Below, in pieces: positions 15,425 through 64,000 of a stretch of DNA of 64,000 bases (the stretch's first letter is position 1; every line of letters starts with the position of its first letter). This DNA is from Ascidiella aspersa (lineage: Eukaryota), in NCBI GenBank assembly GCA_963924565.1, contig OZ004611.1:24552001-24616000 (forward strand), written 5' to 3'. The translations under genes were made by a program, and so were the position numbers. The notes under the pieces are model-generated. The model ran no database searches. It was not told the origin of the DNA and was given only the letters and a program-made list of their open reading frames with translations.

Positions 15425-15920
15425 TCACTGTGATCTAGCCCTTCTGAAGCTTCGTTTTGACCAACGATTAAGGCTTACGTATCATCAGTACACCGAAAGC
15501 CATCGCAGACTCACCGAGTCTATCGATCAATGACGCAAGCAGGGCAGGCTAGAAAAACAACTATAGCCTGCAGTGAGGTTCGAACTCGCGACCAGCAGCT
15601 TCAGAAGAACTAGATCGCAGTGGTTAACACACATATGTGTGTCCATGTTTCATTGAATAATGATAGGTCTATGATTACTGTAGATCCTCTTAATATGAAG
15701 TTGCTTGTACTAACAAAATGTGGCAAGCATTGGCGTATGGTTGTTTCTCTACTCTCTCTTCTCTGAGGCTGATGTGTAGCGCAGTTGGTAAAGCCGGTAT
15801 GACCGGAGGTTGTAAGTTCGAACTCACTGCAGGCTAGTTGTGTTTCTAGCCTGCCCTGTTTGCATCATTGGTCGACAGATTCAGTGAGTCTGCGATGGTT
15901 TTCGGTGTACTAGAGATAAC
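15425..15920. repeat. Inverted pair of tRNA-containing repeat copies
   Basis: 15770-15920 (+) has an A box (TAGCGCAGTTGG), a B box (GTTCGAACTC) and a trailer. 15425-15595 is an inverted copy of the T arm and trailer. Homologous to 37738-38080. Confidence 0.75.
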
Positions 15921-33689: not shown

Positions 33690-33885
33690 TTGTAAATGAT
33701 GGAAGTATAGTATATTTCAATGATGAAAATAACGGCCCAAATAGACGTTAAAAGCGACATGCTTTATTTTCAAACGTTTCGGCAATTTCTAATGCCATCA
33801 TCAGTGAGATGTATGTTTAAAGCTTTATCATATTATTTACACTGTGCAATATTGATTTATCTTAAAGCAATACATCATGCTCCAT

Positions 33886-36800
33886 TTAGTTTCTGGTATT
33901 GACTCTTTGCTCCCTAACATTCGTTTTGTACTGCTGCTTCTTGCGTGTACTCTTTTGAATGTATCGTTTGCGAAGCTTGTATCTGGAAAGCGAAAAAGCA
34001 AAGCCTTATGAAAACAGGCGAAACCGATTTATAGCATATAGCAACTTTGTAGATAAATAAATAAAACTTTTACCTAACTTGTTTGCTTAAGTGTATTTGT
34101 GATTCTTATAAGAGAGAGTTTAAATTAAATGACAAATTAATTGACTTAAAACAAAGGATGTCCAACAAAATCGGGTCTGACCAGATGCCCTGCCCGATTT
34201 CAAACATTGTTGTTCGTTGGATTGTAGGGTGGCATGGACGCCTATCCAATACCAAATTAATATAGGAATGTCTGGCACAATTTGCGATCCAACAAATTGA
34301 TTTTCCACCTTAAACGTCGCACATTTTATTTGTTTTGTTTGTTTGACCATAATCGGCATTTAATGTAAAATATGGGATATCCATACTATTAGTAACTAGT
34401 TTAATCCTTAAACCTCAAATTTACCTCCATGGATCCTGGTTCAACCCCTGTACTAGTTTAATTGTTCAACCTCAAAATTACCTGTTGCAAGTGAAAAGGT
34501 CAGCGACTTGCATCACACAGCAAACGTAGCCGCGCTGGAAGTGCTTGCTGTTCCAGCCGTAGATGAAGCTGTTTATAGAAGAGTTGCACATCCCCAGCCA
34601 GGACGTTGGACGCTTCACTGGAAAAGCAAATGGCGATTCGAGCATTGTTAATGAATTTGTTGTTTGTGCAGGAACAGAGCCTAGACAGTTGACTAGGATG
34701 GATTTAAAACTAGGGAGTTTTAATCTTTTCAAACTGGTTTAGAGTTCATAAAAGTAAAATCGAAATCGAGCTAAACACAAACTTGTTGTGCAGATAGTTT
34801 AGTGAGGTTCCATTCGCAAATTATATCGAATCGGAAAAGGGAAAGACTTGTGATAATTTGGTTCAATTGCTTCCTGTGTGATGAAATTCTTGTATAAACT
34901 TTAACCTGTCTAAAATTACACTTGAATTATTGGTATTCAGTGCAATTTTCGACGAATTAGGCAAGCTAAAAAATTATTAGTAATTAATCCGTCTATTACT
35001 GTACCGTATGCCCAAATTATATACAAGAAAACGAAAACATTGTTACTTTTCTTGCCCGTATTTTGTTTTCACAACGGTTGTCATCGCAAATATTCCATGT
35101 TTACGCAACCTTTAGAATTTCATCGTTTAAAATTCATTGTGGCAGATGTTGTCGACCAAGGGAGAATGAGTTTTGAGTTTACAAAGGAGAAATTTGATAT
35201 TTATGTATTTATATAGGATATCACGATTGAGTAAATTGTTCATCGTCAATGTTTGTAAAAATTGTAAAAAACTATTTGTTTAGGTCAAGTTGCTTACTAT
35301 TGAATATAATTTTTGTGCAAGCACCAGCGTACGTATTAACGTTTCGTTTACCTTCTTGCCTTTTATAAGGCTGCGTTTTAGGCAGGAGTGCATAGAGGCA
35401 AGCTGTTTTGCCGCCGAATTGTTTGCCCTCTGTTTAGAATCAGTGGCCGAAAATGAGCTGTGTTAGAAATTAGGTTCCAATTGAAATTATTAGGGGAGTG
35501 ATAAAGTAAGCGCGGGGTTTGGAGTTGGGTCAAATGTTGTATAGGCCTTATTCTGGCCATTTAGGTCTTATTCCGACTATAATTTAGGTCTTAGCCGATT
35601 TAGACGATATTACGACTATAGGTATGTCATATTTAGGCGTTATTCCTAAGTGTTTTATTTCGACGGGGTTGAACGGTCTTCAGGCTGGAGTCCGTAAAAA
35701 CTTACCACTCATTTATCACAGCTTTTCTCTGTGACCACAAGATATTGAGCTATGTGGGAAACAGGCTTCAACAAATAGGAGTAAAACAACAGTTTGCCGG
35801 CCGCAATGCTGAATTTTTTGACTAAACTTTAACATCGAACTTTAACATACTTAAAAGTAGAGATAGACCGATATATCGGTTTACCAAATAATATCGGCCG
35901 ATATTTGGCTTCTACCGATATATCGGTATCGGTAAATGTTGGCCGATACTTTGGCCGATATTTTAGTACGAAAATAAGATTTAATTTTGCCTGCGTTATT
36001 TGAATTTTATGTCAATTATTTTAAGTTTTCCAAGGTATATAAAAATCGATATCCGTTGACAAAATTGTAAAAAATCGGTTATCGGTATCGGTTCAAAAAA
36101 GTGATATCGGTTGATCTCTACTTAAAGGTGTGTTTAAGTTTTGTACATAAGCGTTACAATTCCAATATTAGGCCTATGAGGTTAAATGACCGACGAATGA
36201 CCAAAAATGTATATCTAATTTATAAATGGCTGAAAGCAATATTAAAAACTAAATGCGACATTAAGAAAGTTCTGTGAATTCCAAAAAATATAACTGAAAT
36301 ACATTGTGATTTAAAAACTAAAGCTAAAATTTATACTACACAAACACGAAAAATTGCACGAAATTTGTGGTCGACATGTTTTTTCGGAGATTATATATTA
36401 ATTTAAGTGGTCATAATCTGCCTGAAAAAAATATATTTAGAAATTTGTTTTAACGGAGTCATAGAAACCACGTACGTTATAATCAGCACAAAAATTTACC
36501 ACTGCCACGAATTGCAGTCTCCTTTCTTAAATCTTGCCCTTTAGCATATAGGCTGCTTCTTGCTTGTGAACCTTAAACACTGAAATAGGGATCACGTGTG
36601 ACAAAACAGGGCAAGTCGGAAAAAATCGTTTTCGCCGAAAGTCGGACCGCAAAGCAAAGGTAAAGCTATAGGTCTGCGGTGGTAGCTCTACAAGCGAAGC
36701 ATTTCTGCGACAGGCATGTAGCGGTCTCAGATGAACCACAATGCAACAAGGGCGAACCGTAACGGGTTAGCGAAGAACCATTATGACATTACCGAAATGA

Positions 36801-39800
36801 ATCGCCCGTACATGGAGTATGGGTTAAATAAGAGCTTTTTGTATTTAACCGAGTGTTTCTCATCCAGCGGTATTTTATATATAACATTATATAATACTGC
36901 TGGATTAGCAACACTCGGTTATATATTATGGCAGCAATAGCTTATTTCTTTTTGTATTTATCGAGCGTGACAAATCGCTTTAAAAACGTACGCTTAATTT
37001 TGATGAAATCGACAGCAGCAGTGAACAATTGAGCCCGGATTTTATTAAGCGATAAACTGCCCTCTAGCGCCCAATGAACTGAATGATATGCGAAACGTCG
37101 CCCTATGTAACTAAAAGTTGGTGTCCTGATCTAGCCTTGTTTATCCCCCGCGTTGTTTTAAGGAAACCAGCTTAGCGTGAAAGACTGCCAATGAGCTGAA
37201 AGTGGCAGTTTTTTTTTATCTAAAGGCAACGATTTTGCATTTGTCGTCTATACAACAATAAATAATACCGCATTACTGAACGCCTACAATGGCTACGTGA
37301 TTTATACCGTACCAAAGCAAACATTTTATAAAATGTATCGAATCCAAACAATCTAGGTAAGAAACGAAACAAAGTGATTTAGCTTGTCCAAATGGCAAAC
37401 AACTTCTCTACCAGCGTTTGACTCAAAAAGTTAATAGAGATTAAGTTAAGTGCAAAATTGAAACCCGAAAGCTATGCTTCAAGTTTAATATGTACATATG
37501 AGTGATATATATCTATCGTATGACATCTAAACACACTGATCTTTCCATTTATTGTACGAGCGTTCAGTGTCATTCACCCTGACGAAGGCGGCTTGTATGT
37601 TGCCGAAACGTTGGTTAACAATTACAATTACCAGAGGAGCTGTTTTTGATTTATATTACTATGCCTGGTAGCAACAGTTTATACACTGATTTATTTTTAG
37701 GTTTTATTATTAGTTTAAGTGCAATTAAACCTGAACACACATATGTTTGTTTACAACTGAAATCTAGGCCTTCTGAAGCTGCATTTTAACCAACGATTAC
37801 AGCTTACATATCATTAGTATACTGAAAGCCATTGCAGACTCTTGACCGATCTGTCAATTAATGATGCAAGCAGGGCAGACTAGAAAAACATCTGGCCTGC
37901 AGTGAGGTTCGAACTCACGCCCTCCGGTCCAAGCCGGGACCGTCGCTCTACCAACTGAGCTATGCAGGCTCAGACGGGAACGAGTCGAGAAACAACCATT
38001 CGCCAATGCTTGCTCATTTGCTTGCATCATTGATCGACAGATTCGGTGAAGAGTCTGCAATGGCTTACGGTATACTAATAGTTTAAGTGCAACCAGAATC
38101 GTTTTTTTTTTACCATTCCAATTCAGTCAGAGTTAAAATTGGCTATGTGGTACCAAAGTCAACCTATATAAGAACATTAAGACATTGCTGTGAGCTATAT
38201 GGCAAGGGATGTGGCTGTTATGGATACCATACAGCTAATTAGTTGCTCGCTATAGTTTCAACAAACTTGTTTCGCACGAAAGACGTACCTAAAAGAGAGA
38301 CAAAACTCACGATGCGGATTTCGAATGTCAAAGTCCCATCCAAGAGAGGAAAGCAGCACTACGCTGCAATAAGGAGTCCACGAAACCAGAAAGCAGACCA
38401 GAACAAGCACTATGGTGTGCAGGAGCTTTGCTTCTCTTTTCTGCATCTGTGGTGCCACGTTGCGCGATTTCATCGTCATTTCCGTTGCTTTCCTGTGTGA
38501 AAAAGCGTTTTTTTTTTCTAGTTTTCTGCGGTTTGCCTGGTGAGATTCATTAGGCCTTATATTGGTTGACCTGTATCATTGCGGTCGTGATGCCCGTACA
38601 TTGTCCTACCGCAAACCAATGTTGAAACGACCGTCCTGTTAACAATTAGCCACTCCAAATTATTAATAGGATTTCAATTAATAGTTGTTACATTTGGCCG
38701 TATAGTGAATATAGCTGATGAAATGATTGTAGTCAGCAATAAGGCATATTGTTTTGTTTTTCGCTTGGTAAGTGATGCTGTCTAAATTTACATGTGTTCC
38801 TCATATCCGAGTATTTAAGAAAAGCTGTTAATAATATTATACTTAAAGAGAAACCGTTAGTTCGCTATACATAACCGCCTTTAAAAATATTCAGTATATG
38901 GATTATATTTATATGATAACAAAACACATTGGTCTGCATAAATTTCGCCATGCGGAGATACAATACCTTGATTGAATTACTTCAAGATGTTTTTCGGTCC
39001 TCAATTTTGAAACAAAAAAACAAACTGATTTAGAAAGTATTAACAAGAGGTTTAAATTTACAACCTTACGTTTTTGCAAAAAAACGTTTTTTGTCAACCT
39101 TTTCATTTTATGTATTCGTACCGCTTGACACGCTGGAATAGAATCCAATAGCAGAGTATGGAAATAGTTAGAGGAACGAAGTATGCCAGGGTGATGTAGG
39201 ATATCATGAACTGTGGCTTTGCAACGTCATCCCATGCGCACATGCCTAAAAACACAGCACGGAAAATGCGTGAAATCGTTCCACTACATAACAAAAATTA
39301 CGCTAATTGTATTTTATAAAGATGAATAACAATCAAGCGATGCCGCAAGTTTAGTTTAAATCAAATCAAAAGGGGTGTTGTTTTGTTGGTATTAACCATG
39401 AAAAGAGTGGTAAATCTACCATCATCCAATTAAAAGTATATAAAGAAAATAACTAAAACACTCTGTCAGCAGTTTCCCTCTGTGCACCCATCCACCTTTA
39501 TATAACTTATTTGGTATAATATTTTTTAGATAGTGGTACTGTCTGAAGACTCTAGAAATTGCTATATGTAGTTTATCCTAATTTTTTAATCCATGTGCTT
39601 TACTTTTGACCTAGATACCCCGGCGCAATTTATCTATAGTTAAGTAACTTACATATCAGCAGAACGTAAAGGTACTCGTTTCAAGTCCTAATTTTAAGCC
39701 TTTAAACATCATGTTTAACAAAAATAATTTCTTATTTAGGTAAATACTTGCTCCTTCGTCGTATATAAGTAGCATTTTGTTGTTGTGTGGTTGGCGGATT

Positions 39801-42112: not shown

Positions 42113-43882
42113 AACTCTGAAGCTTTGGTTTCCTGAATACAATTAACACTTTAACGTAAAAAATGTTAGTCCAGAAATTACTCAGGTTGGATTGTAAAAT
42201 CTAAAAAAAAGTCTTGCAATTTTTAAAACAATTCAGGTAATTGTTTGAACCATATAATCAGTCTGAAAGATTGTTCTCTCATAATATAATGCTATACACA
42301 TTCAGTTATCCACATGTAATTGTCATACAACTAAACAATCTGCGAAAATAGTATCATACTTATCCAATGTTGTTGTTCTTTGTCTCAACTCCATTGTACA
42401 CACAACTGAGCAATATTGACCGTACAAGTATTTTAATAAAAACTGTCTTACCAACTTGATTGGAAACCCAGTGTCTTGATCCGGCCTCATCGGTTGTATT
42501 CATAATGTTGCTTTCTTTGCGAGAAATTACTCAAATACTGTGGATTCCCGATTTGCTAAAACTATCGAAAGTTAAATATTTGGCACATTTATTTTTCTAC
42601 AAATTGTTTGCTTGGCAAGTTATATTTAGACCGATTTTTTCAACTTGGTGCTCTATGAGTCTATGTCGCCTGTCTTTTCATTTTTCATCGAATTGCCTGC
42701 ATTATCTTTGCTTTGTAAAGAAGTTTAAAATTGAATATTTTGCTACTAATACTTTTTTCATATAGCACTCTTTATAGTAATCTATCATTATGTCTGTTTA
42801 CTCGTTTTCGAATCACATTTCCTGAGAACAAAACTTGTGCACTTTCGTCTATGCTATAATCCTAATTTTATTTTCACGTTTAAGCACAAATACATTTTTG
42901 GTTTAGCTCTATATTATGATCAAACTTTATAGTTTCACGTAATTGAATCATTTAACATCCATTATAAGCGTTATTTGCTCACTGCATGTACTGAAATGAA
43001 AATGTTAGGACTGAAATGTTAAGTTCTCTCTTAAACTAAAAAGAGCCCTTCAAACAAACTCTCTTAGTGCACCATTGACAATGCGAGAATAAATGAATGA
43101 CATCGTTGCAATATAAACCAGGTGTAAACGCAATTAAACGGCACCAATGGATAAATAGAGTATATGTCCATTTTATCCACACTGCACAAAGCCAGGAAAT
43201 CATTAATTGCGGGCTACAGTGGCATAAATGGAAAACGATTCAACCGCAATAGCGTATGAATTTTTAAACTGAAAACAAAAGATATACAACAATACGTTTC
43301 TTAATACATAAAGGTTAAACGTATACACTGGTCATTATTTTAGAGTAAAATGTCGTGGCTTTTTGACACTAATTGAATTGAATTCGGTTGATTTTACAGT
43401 TTTACTAATCGCAAACAAAGTGCCACGAACATAAAGGCTGAAGGTTTAGTTAGACGAAGCAGTGTTGAAAATCAATAAAAATATATCCAAAATGTTTAAA
43501 AAGGTAACTATTGTGTTTGGGTTTGATATTCCTATACTAGGATGCCAAATGGTTAGAATGCTTTTTACTAAAAGACAAGAACACATAAAATTAAAAAAAT
43601 CCGCGTTTGACGTGCAACTTAAAAATCTGCGTTTGGAACTACATGAACCGAAAAGCATTACTATAGCTGAAACGCCCACATAAATAACGTTAACCCACAG
43701 TTGTTCCCATTTAGAGTAAAACCATAATTTTTTGGAACTTAAAAAATACACACTTGCATAATACATTTTCAGGATACAACTTAACACAGCGGACGACTGA
43801 GAAAAAACGAATGTTACGTAAATTAGGTCGTTGGCGACTCGAATATTAGCCTATATTGCAGCATCTACAGTACAAATTAAAG

Positions 43883-44520
43883 CAGGGTCTGTAGAGCCGT
43901 AGTCGGACTCGAGACTATTTTGGACTACGGAGTAGAGAAAGACTCTTATAGACTCTTATAGTGCGCTTGTGCAGTAAGTTTGGAATCGATAAGATCGCAA
44001 CTGCAAATTGGAATGGTTGAATAACAGATGGTGAAAGATCATTCAACACCAAATTGTGGTGCTTTTGAGTTAAAGACAACCCTATGAGCGGATTACTGTA
44101 TGTTTGCTTTATTTTTAGGGGGATAAGTAGCACATAGGATGATAGAGTCGGTTTCGGATTTGGGACTCGGCGGAATCGTTAAATTTGGCTCGAGTTGGAC
44201 TCAGGACTCAGGAATGGGACTCATTTTTATGTTTTCGGTCAACGTCGGACTCGGGTTGTACAAAACCGACTCCGCAGCCGGCTTTAAAGCAGGGTTCGGA
44301 GTCGGACTCGACATATTTGGTTTGTTTAGCTAGAGTCGGACTCGAAACTCGGGACTCGAGTAAGACATTACCAAAATTTCAAACTAACAAGGCAGCCAAC
44401 TGTAAATTGTAAAGGTGTACGAAAATCGCACATTTTGCCGGAGTCGAACTCGGGACTCGGAATCGGGTAATTGTTTTGTCCGAAGTCCGACTGTTATTTT
44501 AAACCGACTCCACAGTCCTG
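43883..44520. mobile_element. MITE of the GGAGTCGGACTC family (copy 1)
   Basis: Ends CAGGGTCTGTAGAG.../...CCGACTCCACAGTCCTG with many internal GAGTCG/GACTCG units. Duplicated at 61509-62130. Confidence 0.7.
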
Positions 44521-44537
44521 CTGCAAAGTATCAGTTT

Positions 44538-47500
44538 CTAAGCCAGTCCTCCTTTCCGACACCTTTCGGTGCACATCACCAGCGCAGCGCTGAGCAGCGA
44601 ACAGAAACCGATTATATAATACAGGCGTGAAATCGGCAGAACGATGCGGTCTTTTCGTGGGACGTAATCGAACCCATAACCGCTTTCCTCGAGCTCTATC
44701 AAGTAGCCGAAGTTGTTTAGAAACAGTTCGACCCGATTCGAATCGTTGGCCGGCACAAGAGCGGCGTCCGTGATTTGTGCGGCGAAATTCTCGGAACCGG
44801 GCCAGAAACCGCGGTGGATGATTTTACCGTTGCCCGTCGCGCGATCCATCAGGTCGTAGACTATGTGCCAAGCCTGAAAAAAGGCCTCCTTGTTGGAGCC
44901 GATGTGCCACACGAACGGGCCCATGTAGTGCAGCGTGCTCGGGTACACGTTGTCGTCGTACACCAACTTTATGTTGGTCGTGTTCTTGCCCAGTTTCGTT
45001 CGCAGGATTCCGGTAATGAACACGTCCTCCAAATGCAAGTCGTACCTGTCGATCAAACAGTCAATGAAATTTTATTTGTTTAACTAGTTGTTTTCGTTTT
45101 TTGATTGGTTATTTAAGAGCGACCCCCTAAACTAAAGTTTTAATCTATGAGAATTACATCTGATTTAACGTTCTGTCGACAACCAAACGCAAGCGTTACA
45201 AAAATGGGTTTAAAGCAAAAATTTACAATTATCTGATAGACCGCGCTGTTAATTCACACAAAAATTAATACTGCAATTTCGCAAATCAATTGGTGGACCT
45301 TTTGTTATCGCTAACCTCCAAACTGCGACAAGCTTTATTTTATTATTATGTTCAGAAAATAAAATGTACTGACATCATGTTTTAAATAAATGAACAAAAT
45401 ACTCTTATGTTTTATATTACGAGCGTGAAGCATCGATACGTTAGCTATAAGCCATCTAGTGTCACCTTGGAGTGATTTGAGCTTGCCGATAGATGTCGCT
45501 CAACATGGGGAACATCATCACGATAAAACCTCCGTGACAAAACGGAGCCAGATACCCGAATGAGTAGGTTTCCTTCGAGAGAGAGTACTTCCCCTCTCTG
45601 TAAAGAAAGCTTTAAAGTTAAAAAGATTCTGAAAGACTAAAACAGGTGTATTGCAGTCACGGCTGAAGTGTAAGCGTTGAAATTAGTAGGACAAATACAA
45701 ATACACATATTTGTCTTCAAAATAATGGAATCAGGCGGTTATGTTTAAGAAAACCTTTTTGAAATTTAAATGTCTTGCTTACTTAAACCTCTACATTAAG
45801 ATAAACTTTATAGTTGAAATTGTATTACATATTTATTGCCCCAATGATTTAAGACAGGGGGTTTCTAGCAGCTTATAGTTTTAGGAAATGCTCCACTGTA
45901 ATAAGCGGTGGCGAAAAAATTAACTTCAACCCTAAACCCCGTGAACACAGTTTATTTTTTTTGTTGTTATCGTAATTTATTTGTTTATAATTCTTGTAAA
46001 ATAGCGTTAGAGAAACGGAACTCTACCTTGCAGGTCCAATTTGTGCGCTGTACATGAATGGACAGTGCATCGTTCCGTCTTTGACGAACTTCCGCTGATT
46101 GGTTGTGAAGTAATCGTACGTCAGCGCCATATTGATGACGCAATCGTCGTCCGTAAATGCGTAGTAATCGCTGACATCACCAGTGACGTAGGTGACCCAT
46201 TGGTAGGCTGCCAACACTTTGTCGGGCAAGGTGGCGTAGTCATCATTGATGTCACATTGGAGAATGTCGCCGTATTTTTTGTTTTCCGCTTCTATTGAAG
46301 CCTGTAGTGTTTTGTTTTCTACTCTTCCCACAAGGAACAATGTGACAAACCTGCAGAAATTTAAACAACCTGAAAATCGTTAAGTTAATCGGAAGCCAAT
46401 GCCCGATACCAAGGTGTACTATTAGTATTCATCCAATACTATGTGGCAGACTTGGGCAACTAGATTTATTTTAGCTTTTTAAAATTAGATTAGAATTAAA
46501 ATTAGAGCATTTACTGAAATTCCTAAAAAAATAATTTTCGACTAGAATTTGAACTAGAATCACATTTAATTATTTACAATTAATTTGATTTAATCGTAAT
46601 TTATTCTTATAAGAACGCGAATAATAAATATTTATGTGCTATTTTTTTTGTTTTTAGACAGTAAAAATTACATACATGTCGTTCAAACCAAAGAGTTTAA
46701 AATTGAAATTCTGTGTTTTAACTAAGAGACTAAAAATGCCGTTGGACAAAGTAGGATTTTTGGTGAAATCTGAATTAGATTAGAACTAGAATTAGAGCAA
46801 ACTAGAATATTACAAATTGGATTAGAAATAGAATTAGCCGCATTTGCTCTAATTCAATGAATTTAAAAATTAGAATTATTTGGAAGTCTGCGGTATCCGA
46901 TATAGGGTGGTAAAGACCGATGCGATATAAAATTTATCTAGGAATCTCAGCCGTGATTTGCTATTCAATGGGGGAAATCCGAAAGATAAGTTTATCAACA
47001 AATGTTTGGGTAGAAACTGGAAGTAAATAAACTTATTAACGATAAATTTCGGTCTAATAACCTAATACAATACTTAATTTAATTTGGTATCGAATCAGAT
47101 CGCAATATTTTTATGATAAATATCGGGAATTCGGTATCGGAATAAAATGACAAATACAGGGAATCCCTATTAATATGTATATAGCTTTGATCTTACCACC
47201 TCGTGTGATATATCAGCAAGGTGTTTACTAAAGAAGACTTGCCTGCGATGGGGTAATAGCACCTCAGCCAAAGTAAGCTACTTTAAACCAGTGTTTTAAA
47301 AGCAGGTTATGCGAAGGGTACATTTTATAGTGTCTACTAAAATTACATCGAACACTATATAGTTCTGGTAGTTTGGTCAAGAGTTGTGAAATGAAATTGG
47401 AGCTTTTGTACACCAGTGCTCGTTAGAAATCACTTCAATTTCGTACACCTGAAGCATATAAACTGGCACCTGATATACCGTCAAAAACGGCAACCTGCAT

Positions 47501-52344: not shown

Positions 52345-52878
52345 TGTTGCGGTCTTGCAACATCTTTAGCCGTTAGTAATTACTTAAGGAATACTAAATT
52401 AACACATTCAGTACCCAATGGGTTTTAAACATTCGTTCATTTCATAGGCGCCGGTTACCACGATATTACCTCGCGAATCTGTGTATGACTATAGCATGTG
52501 AGGTCACGCGAGGATTGTGAAATTTAAGCAAAATGGTTTGATTATGTTTCGTTATTGTTTCAGTAGTGATAAGTTTTTGTTCGAGAATGTTATAGATTGT
52601 TAGTGTTTTGTCTTTTTGTATTGATGCGGTTTTGAAGATATATTCTATGATAGGTAAAGTGTTATGTAAAATTATTTGATTAGTTGTTGATTGTTCAGTT
52701 GCTAATGTATGTAAATTATCGTTATTTGCAAGCTCGTTGTTGTGTGAATAATTAATAATGCTAATTACCTTTTTTGGTATTTTTGAGAATCAGGCAGATA
52801 TTCTTACTAAGGCAGAACATTAGCGCTGAGATACAAATTATCAGAGCTCACGCTAAATTGTTGTTACAAGTCGTAAAA
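52345..52878 (+). repeat. 5' LTR
   Basis: TGTTGCGGTC...GTCGTAAAA; matches 59594-60127 with 2 substitutions seen. Confidence 0.95.
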
Positions 52879-52972: not shown

Positions 52973-54720
52973 ATGCAGTCAGCAAAGAAAGTTTTAACGC
53001 ACCTAACGGATAAAATTTTGGACGTCGATGACGATATTGTAGGCACATCGCCCAATGAGAACGATTTAACTACGCTAGCACAGGAGCGGTTGGCAGCTAT
53101 TGACCGTTTGAATGCAGAAATATTAGAACTTCGGCTGTCTAATACTCAACACCTCAATGCTTTAGATCTCTCTCGACATAACACACGTCAGTTGAAAGAA
53201 CAACTTCGCATAGATCATCAGGCACACTCGTTAGCGATAAAGCAAAAGGAGACTGACGTGAAACAACTAGAGAAAATGATAAAAAGGATGATCGCGTTAG
53301 ATCAGTGGCGTTGTCAGCTTTAGCAAAACGGCCAGCAACCGCTGCTATCCTACAGGAAATTCAAACAACCGTTTCTGAAGCAGCACCCCCGTATACGTCC
53401 CAAATTTATCCCGAACTGCCTACCAGCAGTGCGAATACCGCTCACACAATATTAATCACCGAAAATAATCCGCCTGATAGTGCAACAACCCCTTCTACAA
53501 GCAGAGCTCATTTTGATACAACTTTGCCTTCCTCGTCTGCATACACACCCATTTATTCTCGTGAAATCCCTGAGCCGCGAGGTTTGTTTTCTAGCAGTGA
53601 CGAGCCTCAGACGTTAACCCTTGACAACTCGGTTAGAAAAAAGGTTGATTTAGCACAATTAGTACGCTGTGTACCGGGACAGGAAAAGATTTGGTTTGAA
53701 TTAAATACTAGCAATCTGCAGAAACATGGTTTGACGACACAAAACATTTTAACGACCCTACTTGCAACGACTGATTTACACGCAGACCTAAGGAATTATT
53801 TACAAGCTTTAATCGTAAATGCAAATATGAATGCTGATCAGAAACTAAGAATCTTGGGAGTATACATAAAAGAAACATACACTAAAACTAAATTGGCCAC
53901 AATGCAGGGGCTTAGAAAACAACTTGAGAGCATTAAATTAGATAATACCTTCATTTCTCCTTTGCAGGCCATCAGCACTATTTTTGCACAGCAAGGTTTG
54001 GTATTGGATGGACGGGCGACCGATGATCCTCATATACAATTAGTTCAGGAAATTTTGTTACAAAAATTACCAACCACTATTGCTTTACAGATCGAAGGAA
54101 AATCTTGGTTTGAAACTCGGAAGATATTAAGTCGCTTGCATAATATCTCACAGGCAAAAACAACGGACAAGCCTACGGATCTAGTAATGTATAGCCATCC
54201 GACTGACAATATGCCTGTTTCTAATCCAACAAAACCTTTTGACTTAGATTCTATAACTAGTGATATGAGTGAATTGCGTGCTTTAATACTACAAAAATCG
54301 GAAAACGAGCAACCACTAAATAATAAAATATGTCTTCCATCTTCACAGGAGCAGCAAGAGATCCATAAGTATTCGGTCTTTCACATTTGCTCGGAACATG
54401 GCCATTTAGCACCTGACTGTGACATAACAAGGATTATGCACAAAAAGGGCTGGAAGGTAACACGTGACCCATCGGCAAATCTTGCTTCGATTGACCCTTC
54501 CATTCCAAAATGTCTTCGAGGACGAAACTTCAGAATGCCCTGGACTCAATTTCGTGGAAATGACAGGTTCAATTATCCGCAACAGGACCGCAATGATAGA
54601 GGTAGGAACGATTTTTACCATTCCACCCGACATGCAACGCCACCACAGGCTTTCCGTGCCAATTCTAATCGCTTTCAAAAAAACAAATTTCGGGTGCTGC
54701 CAAGTCCTTGCCAGCTTTAA
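52973..54720 (+). pseudogene. gag: gag-like gene, frameshifted at about 53310
   Basis: ORFs 52973-53323 (coiled-coil-like) and 53305-54720 (P/S/T-rich linker, helical region, degenerate knuckle F-x2-C-x4-H-x4-C, basic tail). It lies between the PBS and the protease. Confidence 0.75.
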
Positions 54721-57700
54721 GCCCCCAGGCAGTGTTTTTACCTAATGACTATCCTATTTTAGCATCTGTTAACAGTACTAATCTGCATTTATTTGTAACT
54801 GATGAGGTCACTTGCCAACCATTTTTATTGGACACGGGTGCATCTTCCAATATCGTACATTCTTCTGCATTAGGTTCTACGAGTGAAGTATTACAATCTA
54901 ATTCGACATTTAACACATTAAATGGGTCGATTGCTCCAATTGCTTCCCAAGGAAAAGTAAATCTATCAATAAATATTTCAGGCCAATCACGCAGTTTGCA
55001 GTTTGAAGTTTTAGATTGCACGCCATGCAACATAATAGGGTTGCCTGATATAATGAAATATGATCTATTGCCGGAAAGCAGTCTGGCAATACATGGCACG
55101 CACCAGGAAGCGGCCCACGTATTAACAATTTTGCGCTCAGCTGACAAAGGACTTTCTAATAACAACATTTCGTATGATCAGGCCTGCAGAATTGCTAACT
55201 CTCAACAGCCTCGAACTAAAGTTGAAACGCCTGCGAAGACTTTGATTTCACCAAATAAAATTGATCCAATAATTGATTGATCCAATAAATCGTCATCCGG
55301 TTTTCTTAGTAAAAAAAAAGCCAAGTGGATTTCGAGTGGTGGTTGATTTTAAAAAGTTAAACTCTTTGATGACGACAGACGATTACAATTTGCCGAGAAT
55401 GGATTCTGTGTCGAAGTACATCCAAGGTAAAAAGTTTTTTTCTTCAATTGATTTATGTAAGGCTTTTCACCACGTTCCGGTGAGTCCAGAGTCTCGTAAT
55501 TACCTTGGCCTTGCCACTGAGTTCGGGACGATGGCCTGGTCACGATCTCCGATGGGCATTAGAAATGCGGCCCGAGTTTATCAAGCAAATATGGACGTTA
55601 TAGCTAAAGAAATATTAACTAACTATAATGAATGGCGCACCAATCAGGGCATGCAACCCGTCGCGGAAGCTGTAAAAACCTATATAGATGACATATTAAT
55701 TTCGACGGCAACCGAAGAAGAACATTTAATTTTAATCGATTTAACCTTTAAGATGTTATCCCATTACAATTTGACTGTAAACAAGGACAAATGCAATTTT
55801 GGAAAAGATCGCGTAACCTTTTTGGGCCACATCGTTTCTGCTGAAGGTGAACAGCCGCTGCTTTCACGACTACAGGGTTTAAATGACCAACCTTTGCCGC
55901 GCACGATAAACGATTTACGCAAATGGCTTGGTGTGGTGCGATATGAAAAACGTCACGTTCCTCACTTAGCAGAATTAACAGTTTCACTAGATCAAATCGG
56001 CAAGAATGTCAGCGCGAAGGAATCATCTAAAACAATGATTCAGTGGACACGCGAACTTTCAGAAGCGTTCCTCTTGACACGTGAAGCCATGTTAAATTCA
56101 GCGACCCTGCGTTCTTATGACCCAAGCCGCCTTTTGCAAATTGCAACTGATGCATCTGGCCTTGCAGCAGGAGCAGTTCTTTTTCAATTGTCCGCAACAA
56201 ACAAAATTGAACCGCTGGGGTATTTCAGTCGCGCTTTTAACTCTGCTCAACAGCGCTATTCGACATTCGTACGCGAACTGCTTGCCTTACGTTTAGGTTT
56301 GCAATATTTTCGAACGTACCTTGAGTCCAACACTTTCATAATCCATACCGATCACGCCCCCTTAATGAAGGCTCTACAAGGAGGCAACACGCCTCTTAAA
56401 GGATTGTCAGCGGGACTGGTTAGGTCAAATCCTTGAATTCAGTTTTGAAATAAAGCATGTAAAAGGGTGTGACAACATAATTGCTGATTATTTCAGTCGT
56501 GAGGGCTGCAACACGTCTAACGCATCTCAGAAGACATTTTTATACTTTGCAAAAACCCAGTTTCCCCCCTCTCTGTCTATAAACCGCTTGCATAATCTAC
56601 AACTAGAAGCATTCTGTCAATGCAAAAGCAACCAATGTGCTAAACGCCACGTCAAACCGTCTCAAATAACTGATCTACCTAAAGGGCCGTTGATAATGTG
56701 CGACGAGCCAGGTTTACTTGACCGTGTTTTGTTACCTACAGAACCTTCACAGCGTTTTGTGTTTGATTCGTATCATGGCTATACCCATCACGGCCCGAGC
56801 ATAACTTGGAATGCTTTGCGACAGATTTATCATGGTCCCCATTTTCGCAAAAACATATTGCGTTGGTCTAACGATTGTCAGGTTTGCATAAAAAACCGTC
56901 CGAAACGCTTAGAAGAGGTACCGTTAAAACCATTTCAATATCCAAGTGGAAGATTGCGCACTGTTCATATGGACGTTTTTGCATTACCTCCATCAACTAC
57001 CAACCCTTCCTATACCAAACTTCTCACAATGATCGACCGCGACAGTTCTTATGTAGTTCTTGCGCCCCCTTTACATGAAACCGCCAGTCAAATCATCGAT
57101 GCATTTCGCAAATTCTGGCTCGCCTATTTTTCCGCGCCTGAAGTTCTAGTGTCTGACAATGGCCCCAACTTCCGGTCAAATGAATTTCGTTCTTTCTGCT
57201 CTGATAGCAATATCGAACATCGTTTGTGTACACCTTACAACCCCCGCGCAAATGGAAAAATTGAACGCATGCATCGCTCTCTACGTGATCTAATTTCTGC
57301 TCAGCCGTATAAAGAAGCGTGGTTACAATATCTAGCGTGGTTACAACTTTCCATAAATTCTATGTGGCGCGAACAAATGAACACTTCATCTTTTCAGTCC
57401 CTTTTTGGAATAACGCCACGCACTCCTGTTCATGTGACTGCACCGCTTTTGTCCAGTTTTCCTCCTGAGCACACTGGAAGTGCTCCGGGTCTGATACATA
57501 GTCGACTGCCTCAGAAATCTGTAAGTGACGCTGCCCCATCTCGTTGGGAAGACGCCACTCATGCCTTTTTGCCTGTTCGTTCGCGCGGAAATAAAATAGC
57601 ACCTGTAAGGGAAGGTCCTTTCCGCATTGTACGTTTGACGCGCACCAATGTAACTGTCGATTTGTCGCAAAATGAATTGCGCACGATTCCGCGTGATCAG

Positions 57701-57781
57701 GCATATCACTCCACACGAGTATGCAAAGGAATGCACTTGCACCCGTGTGGAACGACAAGTAACTCTTTGCATAGGAACTAA
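54684..57781 (+). pseudogene. pol: pol: aspartic protease, reverse transcriptase, RNase H and integrase, with 2 frame breaks
   Basis: PR LLDTGAS...IIG (54708-55280); RT RVVVDFKKLN, IDLCKAFH, PMGIRNA, YIDD, FLGH; RH TDAS, RELLA, TDH, continuing in the next frame as NIIADYFSR; IN HHCC, VHMD, SDNG, GKIER, GPF (56588-57781). Confidence 0.95.
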
Positions 57782-59579
57782 TGAAATACGCGTACCATCA
57801 TTACGTAACACCTGGGTAAAATTTCGATATTCATTGCCAGCTGACAAACTACCATCTCTCTACGTTAATTCGTTCACCTTATTATCTTTGTTTTTAACAA
57901 CTTTACTCGAAAAGTTTGTACGGATAAAAGCGGTAGTAACGGTTGGGTCTGCCTCTTACCTAACTAGAAATACGTCGATTGACGATTTCGTTTACTCTGT
58001 AATTCCTAATATTTGTGACACTCATCTCACAACCCGATTACAGGTTTTAAATGACGCAGAACCTTGCAGCACAGCAGGTTGTGTTGGTGCCCTTCGCCTT
58101 TCAATCCCTGTTGGCACGATAGGTCATTATAGGACAAATGTACGCGTACATGACGACGATAATAATGTGCCCGGATGTTCAGAGCCTTATCTCAGTTTTT
58201 GGTCGACCACCCAACAGATTGGCACCATTTACCGAAAACCAAAAACTGCCCCTCGCATCTTTGTAAACATATCGCTATTTGAACCTCGTTTTTCTCACTT
58301 TTCGTCTAATGAATTAATTGTTACTATACAACAACGGGGTAATTTAAACGCTCGTCTCCTTGATTTATTTTTGTTAGCTTATCCACAAGAATGGTTTCCC
58401 AATAACACCATAATAACGAACCGTAAAGCTTCCTTTCCTGTTCGTTAGCTACGGACCGCGCATGTCTAAAAAAAAGTCGCGCCCCTTCATGTCGTTTAGC
58501 AACTGGTTCTCCAAGGGTCGCCATAGCACATAAAATAACCCTTGCCCCTTTTTGGCAATGCAAGTAATATTCCAGTAGCTCCCGTACGTTTTAGACCGAC
58601 TCACTTTCGTACAAAGCGTTTTCTTTTTATGTCTTTGATTGCTTGTTTGTTTTCCGAGGCAACGATTCACTATGAAATGCACAAATTTAAAACAGAACTG
58701 AATTCTAGGCTAAATACCCTCCAAAAACAAATAGACCAAAAATTCACGGCTACTGAACTCCAGATCCAAAGCATGGCTTCTTCCTTACAACAAACAAGTT
58801 TTGCAGTTGAAGATTTACACGACGGGACAGAAGCACTCGCCCGCGACTTGCGAAACTTTGAACAAATGCAACTTTCCGAAGACCGTCAATTACTCCGCCT
58901 AATACAACAAAACCGTCTCCTTGGGCTACAAAACCAACGTGAGCAACTTGAGGCGTCTCAAATTTCTCTCGCCACTTCCACCGCTGAACGTGATTTGCTC
59001 CGTGCCTGCCTTCGTTCACTACACACCCTTGGAAACCTCACCCGGGATAACACTTCGGTTTATTCCTTCACCTTATCAAAAGGCATTCTAAGACTTTCTC
59101 GCCTTGCAAAAATTGAGTCTATGGAAGCCTCCAACACTTCCGATACGAACTTCACCGGAATAAGCGCGATCCTTCACCGACAAGACACAAACATCTCTAA
59201 GACACTTGAAGAAGACATCGCACGTCTCGACAACACAAGTATGAATCTAACGTTCACCTTTCGTCCTTTGGTTTTCACTGAGGATAGCCACCTATTCAAC
59301 TTCTCGCATGACGATTTTTTTGCCGATGCTGGTGCAGGACTCAACTCAATCGAAGGCGTCCTTGACACAGGACTAAACGACGTAAGGGACGTCGTTGACA
59401 ACACAGTAGATGACGCCACCGGACTTTTAGGCCAACCCCTTTTAATGGTTGCAATCATCGGAAGTTCGGCGCTAGCAGCATTTTTACTTCTCATCGGCGG
59501 ATGCTACGCATGGAATCGTTTTCGTCACAGTCAAGACAATGGCAAACACCGACAAGGAATTGCGTTATCAACTCTCTAA
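57672..59579 (+). pseudogene. env: env-like envelope/fusion glycoprotein gene, interrupted around 58430-58560
   Basis: ORF 57672-58448 has a hydrophobic signal-like stretch, Cys residues and sequons. ORF 58542-59579 has RTKR followed by FLFMSLIACLF, a long heptad repeat, 8 NxS/T sequons after the cleavage site, the TM helix LLMVAIIGSSALAAFLLLIGGCYAW and a short tail. Its stop codon abuts the PPT. Confidence 0.8.
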
Positions 59580-59593: not shown

Positions 59594-60127
59594 TGTTGCG
59601 GTCTTGCAACATCTTTAGCCGTTAGTAATTACTTAAGGAATACTAAATTAACACATTCAGTACCCAATGGGTTTTAAACATTCGTGCATTTCATAGGCGC
59701 CGGTTACCACGATATTACCTCGCGAATCTGTGTATGACTATAGCATGTGAGGTCACGCGAGGATTGTGAAATTTAAGCAAAATGGTTTGATTATGTTTCG
59801 TTATTGTTTCAGTAGTGATAAGTTTTTGTTCGAGAATGTTATAGATTGTTAGTGTTTTGTCTTTTTGTATTGATGCGGTTTTGAAGATATATTCTATGAT
59901 AGGTAAAGTGTTATGTAAAATTATTTGATTAGTTGTTGATTGTTCAGTTGCTAATGTATGTAAATTATCGTTATTTGCAAGCTCGTTGTTGTGTGAATAA
60001 TTAATAATGCTAATTACCTTTTTTGGTATTTTTGAGAATCAGGCAGATATTCTTACTAAGGCAGAACATTAGCGCTAAGATACAAATTATCAGAGCTCAC
60101 GCTAAATTGTTGTTACAAGTCGTAAAA
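59594..60127 (+). repeat. 3' LTR
   Basis: 534-bp direct repeat of 52345-52878. Confidence 0.95.
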
Positions 60128-61508
60128 ATAGTGTTGCTTTCTTTGCCAGAAATTACTCAAATATTCTGGATGCCCGATTTGCTAAAACTATCGAAAGTTA
60201 AATATTCGGCACATTTCTTTTTCAACAAATTGTTTGCTTGGCATGAAGTTATATTTAGATCGATTTTTTTAACTTGACGCTCGATGTCGCCTGTCTTTTT
60301 ATTTTTCATCGAATGGCCTGCATTATCTTTGCTTTGTAAAGAAGTTTCAAATTGAATATTTTGCTACTAATACTTTTTTCATATAGCACTCTTTATAGTA
60401 ATCTATCATCATGTCTGTTTACTCGTTTTCGAATCACATTTCCTGAGAACAAAACTTGTGCACTTTCGTCTATTTATGCTATAACCGACCTAATTTTATT
60501 TTCACGTTTAAGCACAAATACATTTTTGGTTTAGCTCTATATTATGATCAAACTTTATAGTTTCATGTAATTGAATCATTTAACATCCATTATAAGCGTT
60601 ATTTGCTCACTGCATTTGCTGAAATGAAAATGTTAGGACTGAAATGTTAAGTTCTCTCTTAAACTAAAAAGAGCCCTTGAAACAAACTCTTAGTGCACCA
60701 TTAACAATGCGAGAATAAATGAATGACATCGTTGCAATATAAACCAGGTGTAAACGCAATTAAACGGCACCAATGGATAAATAGAGTATATGTCCATTTT
60801 ATCCACACTGCACAAAGCCAGGAAATCATTAATTGCGGGCTACAGTGGCATAAATGGAAAACGATTCAACCGCAATTGCGTATGAATTTTTAAACTGAAA
60901 ACAAAAGATATACAACAATACGTTTCTTAATACATAAAGGTTAAACGTATACACTGGTCATTATTTTAGAGTAAAATGTCATGGCTTTTTGATACTAATT
61001 GAATTGAATTCGGTTGATTTTACAGTTTTACTAATCGCAAGCAAAGTGCCACGAACATAATGGATCAAGGTTTAGTTAGACGAAGCAGTGTTGAAAATCA
61101 ATAAAAATATATCCAAAATGTTTAAAATGGTAACTATTGTGTTTGGGTTTGATATTCCTATACTAGGATGCCAAATGGTTAGAATGCTTTTTACTAAAAG
61201 ACAAGAACACATAAAATTAAAAAAATCCGCGTTTGACGTACAACTTAAAAATCTGCGTTTGGAACTACATGAACCGAAAAGCATTACTATAGCTGAAACG
61301 CCCACATAAATAACGTTAACCCACAGTTGTTCCCATTTAGAGTAAAACCATCATTTTTTGGAACTTAAAAAATACACACTTGCATAATACATTTTCAGGA
61401 TACAACTTAACACAGCGGACGACTGAGAAAAAACGAATGTTACGTAAATTAGGCCGTGGGCGACTCGACTATTAGCCTATATTGCATCATCTACAGTACA
61501 AATTAAAG

Positions 61509-62130
61509 CAGGGTCTGTAGAGCCGCAGTCGGACTCGAGACTATTTTGGACTGGGAGTAGAGAAAGACTCTTATAGACTCTTATAGTGCGCTTGTGCAGT
61601 AAGTTTGGAATCGATAAGATCGCAACTGCAAGTTGGAATGGTTAGATAACACATGGTGGAAGATTTTTCAACAACAAATTGTGGTGCTGTTGAGTTCAAG
61701 ACACCCTATGAGCGGATTACTGTATGTTCGCCTTATTTTTAGGGGGATAAGTAGCACATAGGACCATAGAGTCGGTTTCGGATTTGGGACTCGGCGGAAT
61801 CGTTAAATTTGGATCGAGTCGGACTCGGGATCATTTTTATGTTTTCGGTCAACGTCGGATTTGGGATTCATTGAACCGACTCCGCAGCCGGCTTTAAAGC
61901 AGGGTTCGGAGTCGGACTCGAGACTCGACATATTTGGTTTGTTTAGCTAGAGTCGGACTCGAAACTCGGGACTCGAGTAAGACATTACCAAAATTTCAAA
62001 CCAATAAGGCAGCCAAATGTAAAGGTGTACGAAAATCGCACATTTTGCCGGAGTCGAACTCGGGACTCGGAATCTGGTATTTGTTTTGTCCGGAGTCCGA
62101 CTGTTATTTTAAACCGACTCCACAGTCTTG
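61509..62130. mobile_element. MITE of the GGAGTCGGACTC family (copy 2, duplicated with the segment)
   Basis: Paralog of 43883-44520. Confidence 0.7.
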
Positions 62131-62147
62131 CTGCAAGGTATCAGCTT

Positions 62148-64000
62148 CTAAGCCAGTCCTCCTTTCCGACACCTTTCGGTGCACATCACCAGCGCAGCGC
62201 TGAGCAGCGAACAGAAACCGATTATATAATACAGGCGTGAAGTCGGCAGAACGATGCGGTCGTTTCGTGGGACGTAATCGAACCCATAACCGCTTTCCTC
62301 GAGCTCTATCAAGTAGCCGAAGTTGTTTAGAAACAGTTCGACCCGATTCGAATCGTTGGCCGGCACAAGAGCGGCGTCCGTGATTTGTGCGGCGAAATTC
62401 TCGGAACCGGGCCAGAAACCGCGGTGGATGATTTTACCGTTGCCCGTCGCGCGATCCATCAGGTCGTAGACTATGTGCCAAGCCTGAAAAAAGGCCTCCT
62501 TGTTGGAGCCGATGTGCCACACGAACGGGCCCATGTAGTGCAGCGTGCTCGGGTACACGTTGTCGTCGTACACCAACTTTATGTTGGTCGTGTTCTTGCC
62601 CAGTTTCGTTCGCAGGATTCCGGTAATGAACACGTCCTCCAAATGCATGTCGTACCTGTCGATCAAACAGTCAATCAAATTTTATTTGTTTAACTAGTTG
62701 TTTTCGTTTTTTGATTGGTTATTTAAGAGCGACCCCCTAAACTAAAGTTTTAATCTATGAGAATTACATCTGATTTAACGTTCTGTCGACAACCAAACGC
62801 AAGCGTTAAAAAAATGGGTTTAAAGCAAAAATTTACAATTATCTGATAGACCGCGCTGTTAATTCACACAAAAATTAATACGGCAATTTCGCAAAATCAA
62901 TTGGTGGGCCTTTTGTTATCGCTAACCTCCAAACTGTGACAAGCTTTATTTTATTATTATGTTCAGAAAATAAAATGTACTAGCATCATGTTTTAAATAA
63001 ATGAACAAAATACTCCTATGTTTTATATTACGATCGTGAAGCATCGATACGTTAGCTATAAGCGACTGATCAAACCATTTAGAAAATGCAATTTTTTAAG
63101 CTAGGTTGTAAACCGGCCGTGTCCCTCTAGTGTTACCTTGGAGTGATTTGAGCTTGCCGGTAGATGTCGCTCAACATGGGGAACATCATCACGATAAAAC
63201 CTCCGTGACAAAACGGAGCCAGATGCCCGAATGAGTAGGTTTCCTTCGAGAGAGAGTACTTCCCCTCTCTGTAAAGAAGCTTTAAAGTTAAAAAGATTCT
63301 GAAAGACTAAAACAGGTGTATTGCAGTCACGGTTAAAGTGTAAACGTTGAAATTAGTAGGACAAATACAAATACACATATTTGTCTTTAAAATAATGGAA
63401 TCAGGCGGTTATGTTTAAGAAAACCTTTTTGAAATTTAAATGTCTTGCTTACTTAAACCTCTACATTAAGATAAACTTTATACTTGAAATTGTATTACAT
63501 ATTTATTGCCCCAATGATTTAAGACAGGGGGTTTCTAGCAGCTTATAGTTTTAGGAAATGCTCCACTGTAATAAGCGGTGGCGAAAATATTGACTTCAAC
63601 CCTAAACCCCGTGAACACAGTTTATATTTTTTGTTGTTATCGTAATTTATTTGTTTATAATTCTTGTAAAATAGCGTTAGAGAAACGGAACTCTACCTTG
63701 CAGGTCCAATTTGTGCGCTGTACATGAATGGACAGTGCATCGTTCCGTCTTTGACGAACTTCCGCTGATTGGTTGTGAAGTAATCGTACGTCAGCGCCAT
63801 ATTGATGACGCAATCGTCGTCCGTAAACGCGTAGTAATCGCTGACATCACCAGTGACGTAGGTGACCCATTGGTAGGCTGCCAACACTTTGTCGGGCAAG
63901 GTGGCGTAGTCATCATTAATGTCACATTGGAGAATGTCGCCGTATTCTTTGTTTTCCGCTTCTATTGAAGCCTGTAGTGTTTTGTTTTCTACTCTTCCCT
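62148..64000 (-). CDS. GT31 beta-1,3-glycosyltransferase-like protein, copy 2 (3' exons only)
   Basis: Exons (minus strand) 63697->64000, 63137-63268, 62148-62655. Open frame and intact splice sites, near-identical to copy 1 (TDDD, PFCHGG, LEDVFITG). Confidence 0.9.

What the first reader, a model, noticed from the sequence alone, without database searches (positions are those of the whole stretch)
37533..37690. Hammerhead ribozyme in a 142-bp insert flanked by a target-site duplication
Seen: an intact core (CUGACGA...GAAA...GUU), a 6-bp stem II, a stem I and a palindromic vestigial stem III, inside 37541-37682 and bounded by ACACTGAT direct repeats. It lies antisense within GPCR intron 5. 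Known: minimal type I hammerheads with a palindromic stem III occur in the terminal repeats of Penelope-like elements and in retrozymes, and cleave as dimers. Inference: this is a truncated Penelope-like terminal repeat or a retrozyme-type monomer.
Basis: partly seen in the sequence, partly recalled or inferred. Interest (0 to 1): 0.7.

Follow-up and report, generated by a model that had tools for sequence, protein, structure and literature searches.

The report
Penelope retroelement stub with hammerhead
This is the broken-off end of a jumping gene, one of several hundred such copies in a sea-squirt genome, and it carries a real but well-known minimal self-cutting RNA motif that points away from the host gene it sits in, so it is ordinary mobile DNA.

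Summary
A minimal type I hammerhead lies at 37576-37615 (+); 0 of 500 shuffled windows give such a motif. Reads of the same species show that 37541-37683 is a repeat at about 400-1200 times the flank depth, and its edges fall on the two ACACTGAT copies, so the target-site duplication is credible; no empty site was seen. Other copies run on upstream of 37541 in shared sequence and stop downstream in unrelated AT-rich DNA at two ends 32-37 nt apart; 10 of 15 joints shown are inversions. This is the Penelope-like (PLE) pattern: 5' truncation, optional 30-40-nt tail, inverted copies. The same hammerhead form in other animals follows an RT/GIY-YIG-type ORF in 22 of 47 contigs. It is not a 142-nt retrozyme monomer: there is no tandem continuation. 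No ORF of this family was seen and cleavage was not tested. The copy is solitary and antisense in coding intron 5 of a GPCR, so probably inert. Such motifs number thousands per animal genome and are already listed for Ciona. New member of a known kind; low interest.

The parts
37533..37540 (+). Left copy of the target-site duplication (ACACTGAT)
   Evidence: single-copy read depth (3-7x) up to the bin ending 37535, and clipped ends of family reads at 37541
37541..37683 (+). 5'-truncated 3' end of a high-copy PLE-type family (end of the pseudo-LTR plus tail)
   Evidence: Depth 404-1189 times the flank mean of 5.0; family continues upstream, ends at 37683
37576..37615 (+). Minimal type I hammerhead: stem I 37576-78/37613-15, core 37579-85, extra A 37586, stem II 37587-92/37599-604, GAAA 37605-08, palindromic ACGU 37608-11, predicted cleavage after U37612
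   Evidence: Sequence; descriptor hit with 0 of 500 shuffles; pair-keeping variants among copies
37648..37683 (+). Optional 3' extension ('tail', about 32-37 nt): other copies stop at 37646-37651 or at 37683
   Evidence: Clipped ends behind 37647 (657 reads, agreement 0.48) and behind 37683 (1517 reads, 0.42) in the DNA run; the same ends in both contig sets
37661..37683 (+). ATG and seven open codons running off the element's end; possible start of the PLE ORF captured in the tail (inferred, weak)
   Evidence: Frame open to the end; A and T of the ATG vary in about 1% of DNA reads while neighbours 37652, 37653, 37660 vary in 15-35%; Pro-Gly in frame with an ATG also in relatives' tails
37683..37690 (+). 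Right copy of the target-site duplication; its first base is also the family's last base
34618..38310 (-). Host intron (fifth coding intron, 3693 nt) of a rhodopsin-family GPCR gene; the stub is antisense to it
   Evidence: Pfam 7tm_1 on exons; in-frame exon 5-6 join; open six-exon chain

Best explanation
The insert is a dead-on-arrival 3' stub of a Penelope-like retroelement family in an ascidian genome. Inferred mechanism, from published PLE work: the element's GIY-YIG endonuclease nicked AT-rich DNA in the GPCR intron; its reverse transcriptase started internally on the element RNA at the outer of two start sites, about 71 nt past the hammerhead cut site, which gives the tail; copying stopped after about 143 nt; repair of the staggered nicks left the 7-8-nt duplication. 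The hammerhead is the one that PLEs carry in their pseudo-LTR. It lacks stem III and can form an active core only with a second copy pairing through the ACGU palindrome, probably with protein help. Here it is alone, has a 3-bp stem I, and lies antisense to the host pre-mRNA, so it very probably does not cut the GPCR transcript. Shown here: motif, copy number, edges, truncation, two 3' ends, inversions. Inferred: the link to a PLE ORF in this genome, the insertion chemistry, and inactivity. Whether the master copy codes for its own protein or is mobilised in trans is open.
For: Motif matches the published min-HHR traits: long stem II, short stem I, extra base before G10.1-C11.1, palindromic 15.2-16.2. 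Depth 404-1189x with edges on the 8-mers. Shared upstream continuation (0.73) against mixed downstream flanks (0.42, 0.48); two 3' ends 32-37 nt apart; 10 of 15 joints shown join opposite strands. These match the PLE traits of 5' truncation, 30-40-bp tail and inverted copies and 8-10-bp duplications. Variants A37576>G, G37591>A and C37592>T keep stem pairs. The same motif form in metagenome contigs follows a PLE-type ORF on the same strand in 36 of 61 loci, 22 of 47 distinct contigs; L001's ORF has RVT_1 and GIY-YIG matches. The 69 nt after the hammerhead resemble those of 14 such relatives: 9 of 3000 shuffles and 2 of 3654 window segments score as well.
Against: The likeness to relatives' 3' ends is modest: I picked the 14 relatives by eye from 41 sequences, and a profile built from them did not find the stub in a blind window search (not among the 10 hits at E<=20). 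No empty site was seen. Only 15 of 136 joints and 40 of 138 variant rows were displayed. One listed stem variant (G37591>T, 31 of about 2150 reads) breaks a pair. No two-sided compensatory change within the family could be shown. The fall in depth toward 37541 is partly an alignment effect of loop II indels.
Confidence: 0.85

Rival explanations
1. A monomer of a non-LTR retrozyme: a short tandem repeat unit with one hammerhead, spread through circular RNA.
For: Size is near the range of retrozyme units, solo monomers are common, and retrozymes derive from PLE pseudo-LTRs. Family sequence occurs in the RNA run (578 reads laid).
Against: The 142 nt are not a unit, since copies extend upstream. 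Reads passing 37683 go into unrelated sequence (agreement 0.42). No 37683-to-37541 joint among the 15 of 136 shown. No tandem copy in the window. The retrozymes described carry canonical type I motifs, while minimal ones go with PLEs.
Confidence: 0.06
2. A stub of another kind of hammerhead-bearing mobile repeat (SINE-like or Terminon-like) that does not depend on a GIY-YIG PLE.
For: The family's 5' part was not seen beyond 30 letters of read consensus; hammerheads also occur in schistosome SINE-like repeats and Terminons.
Against: The tail, described as shared among and unique to PLEs, and the inversions are present. No poly(A) or simple repeat at the 3' end. The closest 3'-end match, L001, is an RT + GIY-YIG element.
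Confidence: 0.06
3. A host-adopted ribozyme that affects the GPCR gene, through an antisense transcript or by cutting the pre-mRNA.
For: A second sample with different flanking variants appears to hold the left junction (contig 9 of X2 spans 37200-37569, 29 nt into the stub, just under the tool's 31-nt bar), so the insert is not private to the assembly.
Against: Wrong strand to cut the pre-mRNA. The predicted monomer fold pairs the catalytic core with the cleavage strand (-14.3 kcal/mol) rather than stems I and II (-10.8), and two copies co-fold best in another shape (-30.2 against -19.9 for the hammerhead dimer). Published min-HHRs do not cut as monomers and cut weakly as dimers. Persistence of neutral inserts is ordinary.
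Confidence: 0.02
4. Chance: neither the motif nor the direct repeat is real.
For: Rfam reports no hammerhead; folding z-scores are weak (-1.5 to -2.4 for the motif, +0.3 for the whole insert); a flanking 8-mer is common when edges are free (22%).
Against: 0 of 500 shuffles give the motif; read depth shows a repeat with exactly these edges.
Confidence: 0.01

Closest known systems
Minimal hammerheads (min-HHR) in the pseudo-LTRs of metazoan PLEs (Cervera and De la Pena 2014, PMC4209133)
   Same: Core, extra base before stem II, G10.1-C11.1, long stem II, short stem I, palindromic C-G with no loop III, GUU cut triplet; mostly single dispersed copies ascribed to truncated PLEs; thousands per genome. 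The supplementary alignment already has Ciona intestinalis and Oikopleura dioica rows.
   Different: Stem I is 3 bp here against 4-5 bp described for Schistosoma mansoni. The sequence differs from the Ciona row shown, so this looks like another family; I had no repeat library to check whether it is named.
Poseidon element of Anolis carolinensis (PAc; Frangieh et al. 2024, PMC11167929)
   Same: Hammerhead near the pseudo-LTR/ORF junction; two 3' ends downstream of it, 30-40 nt apart; AT-rich targets; no RNA-seq ends seen at the cut site.
   Different: In PAc the ORF starts at stem II; here the only candidate ATG lies 49 nt past the cut site, inside the tail. PAc is a full, biochemically tested element; this is a 143-nt stub with no ORF seen.
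Penelope elements of Adineta vaga (Arkhipova et al. 2013, PMC3846280)
   Same: 8-10-bp target duplications, 31-bp optional tail that holds the first ORF codons, inverted pseudo-LTRs, solo pseudo-LTRs.
   Different: There an empty allele proved one duplication; here none was seen. This copy has no inverted partner.
Non-LTR retrozymes of animals (PMC7229834; preprint 10.64898/2026.07.22.740005)
   Same: Short, non-coding, low-GC repeat with a type I hammerhead; PLE-related; solo copies in introns occur.
   Different: Retrozymes are tandem units with a hammerhead in each; this family shows mixed flanks after its 3' end, truncation, tail and inversions.

Membership tests
min-HHR (type I, PLE-associated) | Conserved core CUGANGA ... 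GAAA ... UH in type I order | tested here: met
   no core position is among the 40 of 138 variant rows shown
min-HHR (type I, PLE-associated) | Extra base between 9 and 10.1, G10.1-C11.1 pair, long stem II | tested here: met
   A37586; G37587-C37604; 6 bp; traits
min-HHR (type I, PLE-associated) | Palindromic 15.2-16.2, no stem III of its own | tested here: met
   ACGU 37608-37611
min-HHR (type I, PLE-associated) | Stems kept by covariation among copies | tested here: inconclusive
   Within the family three one-sided pair-keeping variants and one rare pair-breaking one; no two-sided change shown. Across other animals' motifs the free third pair of stem I is kept in 27 of 28 with all four Watson-Crick types, stem II pair 4 in 21 of 28; that speaks for the class, not this family.
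min-HHR (type I, PLE-associated) | Self-cleavage as a dimer or with protein help | not testable with these tools
   Needs in vitro assay; energy estimates do not favour the active fold
Penelope-like element (EN+) | ORF with telomerase-like RT and GIY-YIG endonuclease linked to this repeat | not testable with these tools
   No genome held; none in the window; present only in other animals' elements with the same motif form
Penelope-like element (EN+) | 5'-truncated dispersed copies with a fixed 3' end | tested here: met
   Shared upstream continuation, mixed downstream flanks
Penelope-like element (EN+) | Optional 30-40-bp tail at the 3' end | tested here: met
   Ends at 37646-37651 and 37683 in the DNA run and both contig sets
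Penelope-like element (EN+) | Inverted truncated copies next to each other | tested here: met
   10 of the 15 joints shown (of 136) join opposite strands; each rests on 1-3 contigs
Penelope-like element (EN+) | Partial tandems forming pseudo-LTRs on both sides of an ORF | not testable with these tools
   Needs an assembly; seen only in other animals' contigs such as L030
Penelope-like element (EN+) | Short target-site duplication | tested here: met
   8-mers coincide with edges set independently by reads; no empty allele seen
Non-LTR retrozyme | Head-to-tail tandem units, each with a hammerhead | tested here: not met
   No tandem copy here; reads leave 37683 into unrelated sequence. Rare arrays elsewhere are not excluded.
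Non-LTR retrozyme | Abundant monomeric circular RNA | tested here: inconclusive
   One RNA run, 6% read: no back-joint among the joints shown and no pile-up of ends; library type is not suited to small circles

The most novel reading that the evidence does not exclude
The family has no coding master in this genome. It is a short, PLE-dependent non-autonomous element with about a thousand copies, transcribed on both strands, so that sense copies in host transcripts (such as the second minimal hammerhead at 33770-33807, sense to the same GPCR and with the same ACGU palindrome) can be cut in trans by hammerheads of this family, as a genome-wide cross-family dimer system that trims host RNA.
Probability: 0.05. 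Interest if true: 0.6.

Novelty: new member of a known kind. Interest (0 to 1): 0.2.

Why it matters
Little, as a single locus: minimal hammerheads in truncated PLE ends are counted in thousands per animal genome and tunicate examples are in print. The modest value is as a clean natural example: a clear duplication, and a family whose two 3' ends mirror the two internal reverse-transcription start sites measured for the Anolis element. It would matter more only if lone or cross-family hammerheads of this kind were shown to cut host transcripts in cells.

Tried and rejected
Rfam at gathering and at E<=10: no hammerhead, only a tRNA-like hit nearby; not taken as evidence against, because my descriptor and shuffles settle the motif. 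No whole genome is held. Family-specific pattern in metagenome contigs: 0. General pattern in viral contigs: 0. PLE ORFs from related loci against the window by tblastn: no hit. Blind nhmmer with a profile of 14 relatives' downstream sequence did not recover the stub; only the position-fixed test did. A hairpin over the tail looked shared by eye but was not supported: predicted folds differ among the window and 3 relatives. RNA run X22: no reads on the unique flank and no pile-up of ends; not used for or against cleavage. Empty site: not among the joints shown; X1's flank contig stops at 37479, which proves nothing. Protein search with the GPCR exon found nothing at E<=1e-8. Second hammerhead: only two 7-nt direct repeats around it, no edges to test them, not called a duplication. 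A first attempt at the full GPCR chain failed through an indexing slip and was redone. Lunse et al. on dimer cleavage (PMC5785218) was not held; known only through a review's passage and citation. Searches of earlier scan findings by sequence, place and a long word list gave nothing. A paper search for 'hammerhead ribozyme' + 'ascidian' + 'Penelope' gave 0, but the 2014 supplement lists Ciona, so no claim of a first tunicate record is made.

Full report
Observation. ACACTGAT occurs at 37533-37540 and 37683-37690 and nowhere else in the window, with 142 nt between. On the + strand lies a type I hammerhead: stem I 37576-78 with 37613-15 (3 bp), core CUGACGA 37579-85, an extra A, stem II of 6 bp (two G.U) closed by G37587-C37604, GAAA, the palindrome ACGU without a loop, and a predicted cut after U37612. 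A descriptor for this form finds 2 motifs in the window and none in 500 dinucleotide shuffles. Rfam reports no hammerhead, and folding z-scores are weak. The host is an ascidian-like animal: the best matches of an IP6 kinase exon are Clavelina and Ciona proteins. The insert lies in a 3693-nt intron (38310-34618) of a minus-strand rhodopsin-family GPCR gene; it is the fifth coding intron in the open six-exon chains that can be built (80 chains, differing in upstream borders). The hammerhead is therefore antisense to the pre-mRNA.

Is it an insertion? An 8-mer on both sides of a chosen motif is not rare (280 of 1272 test positions), so the repeat needed independent edges. In the DNA run the flank has a mean depth of 5.0 and the six bins wholly inside the insert have 404 to 1189 times that: several hundred to about a thousand copies, mostly diverged (322 of 11783 reads laid on the whole stretch are 99% alike or more). 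Clipped ends fall at 37541 and 37683, on the inner edge of the left 8-mer and on the first base of the right one. Only 8 of 63800 positions have an exact 8-mer repeat at spacing 149-151. The duplication is thus credible, 8 nt with one shared base or 7 nt. No empty allele was seen, but only 15 of 136 joints were displayed and flank depth was low. One contig of a second sample with different flanking variants runs 29 nt into the insert, just under the tool's bar for bridging.

What kind of repeat? The two edges differ. Before 37541, 455 clipped reads share a T-rich consensus (agreement 0.73; 0.74 in the RNA run), so the family goes on upstream and this copy is cut short there. Behind 37683, 1517 clipped reads disagree (0.42) and are AT-rich: this is a true end with many different targets. 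A second set of ends lies at 37646-37651 (657 reads at 37647, agreement 0.48; also in both contig sets), 32-37 nt inside. Ten of the 15 joints shown join opposite strands. Papers give these as PLE traits: 5' truncation, an inverted truncated copy alongside, and an optional 30-40-bp tail (PMC8557442, passages); a 31-bp tail holding ORF codons and 8-10-bp duplications (PMC3846280, passages). For the Anolis Poseidon element the tail is the stretch between two internal reverse-transcription start sites downstream of the hammerhead, targets are AT-rich, and the hammerhead cuts only with protein present (PMC11167929, parts 1-2 of 4). An ATG at 37661 opens seven codons to the end of the stub; its first two bases vary in about 1% of DNA reads against 15-35% for three neighbours. 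It may be the ORF start; this is a weak inference.

Conservation of the ribozyme. Among the 40 of 138 variant rows displayed, none is a core position. A37576>G, G37591>A (723 of 2153 reads) and C37592>T keep their pairs; G37591>T (31 reads) breaks one; loop II takes substitutions and insertions. No two-sided change within the family could be shown.

Link to a PLE ORF. I saw no ORF of this family: none in the window, and a family-specific pattern found no metagenome contig. A general pattern for the same motif form gave 0 viral contigs and 61 metagenome loci on 47 distinct contigs from other organisms. In 36 loci, 22 contigs, a match to a PLE-type ORF ends within 700 nt upstream on the same strand; 15 loci with room had none. 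L001's ORF ends 115 nt before the cut site and matches RVT_1 (E 1.3e-6, just under the curated cut-off) and GIY-YIG (E 7.4e-5); L030 holds 3.9-kb tandem copies. At the third pair of stem I, which the pattern left free, 27 of 28 distinct motifs pair, with all four Watson-Crick types. By eye, 22 of 41 distinct downstream sequences form one group; 14 run through a tail with Pro-Gly codons, most with an in-frame ATG, 6 break off at the T-rich stretch before it and 2 earlier, the same two-end layout as here. The window's 69 nt after the hammerhead align to those 14 better than all but 9 of 3000 shuffles and 2 of 3654 window segments. Against this: the group was chosen after looking, and a profile of it missed the stub in a blind search of the window. 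I count this as modest support.

How it works. Inferred from the papers above: nicking of AT-rich intron DNA, internal priming at the outer start site, abortive copying of about 143 nt, repair with a short duplication. The hammerhead has no stem III and needs a partner through ACGU. Published minimal hammerheads do not cut as monomers and cut weakly as dimers (PMC4209133, parts 1-2 of 4; review PMC6765202, passages). This copy has no neighbour of its family in the window. Its best predicted monomer fold ties up the core (-14.3 against -10.8 kcal/mol), and the hammerhead dimer (-19.9) is not the best co-fold (-30.2). It is on the wrong strand to cut the GPCR pre-mRNA. Family sequence is present on both strands in the RNA run (578 reads laid on the stretch, none on the unique flank); this cannot be assigned to this locus. 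I take the copy to be inert.

Rivals. A retrozyme monomer would need tandem units with a shared continuation after the 3' end (PMC7229834, passages; preprint 10.64898/2026.07.22.740005, part 1 of 5 and passages). That is not what most copies show, though rare arrays are not excluded. Another mobile class or host adoption are possible but have little support. Chance is excluded.

Comparison and verdict. It works like, and meets every sequence test for, the minimal hammerheads of PLE pseudo-LTRs; the ORF link and cleavage remain untested. The 2014 paper counts thousands per genome, mostly single copies, and its supplementary alignment has Ciona and Oikopleura rows (one supplementary file could not be searched; preprint supplements are closed, and the Lunse paper was not held). 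New member of a known kind; interest 0.2.

Noticed in passing
window 33770-33807 (-): A second minimal hammerhead (CUGAUGA, 4-bp stem II, same ACGU palindrome, 3-bp stem I of other sequence), unrelated in its flanks to the first and sense to the GPCR gene, about 680 nt past exon 6, whose end has a donor-like GT. No clear target duplication.
   Followed up: partly
window 37722-38079: A separate high-copy repeat right beside the stub: about 60-bp inverted arms (37813-72, 38019-79) around a tRNA-like core at 37894-37969 (-) (Rfam 53.9 bits; ARAGORN calls no amino acid), with related pieces at 15427-15912 and read depth of 1300-3400 over 37725-37808.
   Followed up: partly
RNA run X22 laid on 37627-37682: One expressed transcript elsewhere in the genome holds a 56-nt diverged piece of the family with fixed flanks (84 and 68 reads, agreement 0.99 and 0.96), almost all with the first mate on one strand; its ATG-equivalent is changed.
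   Followed up: no
window 53257-59579 (+): LTR-type retroelement: a long gag-like frame, RT/RNase H and integrase matches in separate frames, and a further 346-aa frame that looks env-like by eye. Flanking sequence is duplicated (frames at 52466-52789 and 59715-60038; 43446-46298 resembles 61072-63968).
   Followed up: no
window 40688 (-): The GPCR's exon 2 may end at a GC donor (AAG/GCAAGT); one of several open chains.
   Followed up: no
L030 1068-8968; also L022, L044: Head-to-tail arrays of 3.9-4.1-kb PLE copies with one minimal hammerhead per unit; in L030 a separate 352-aa ORF without Pfam match lies between the hammerhead and the 797-aa RT ORF.
   Followed up: no
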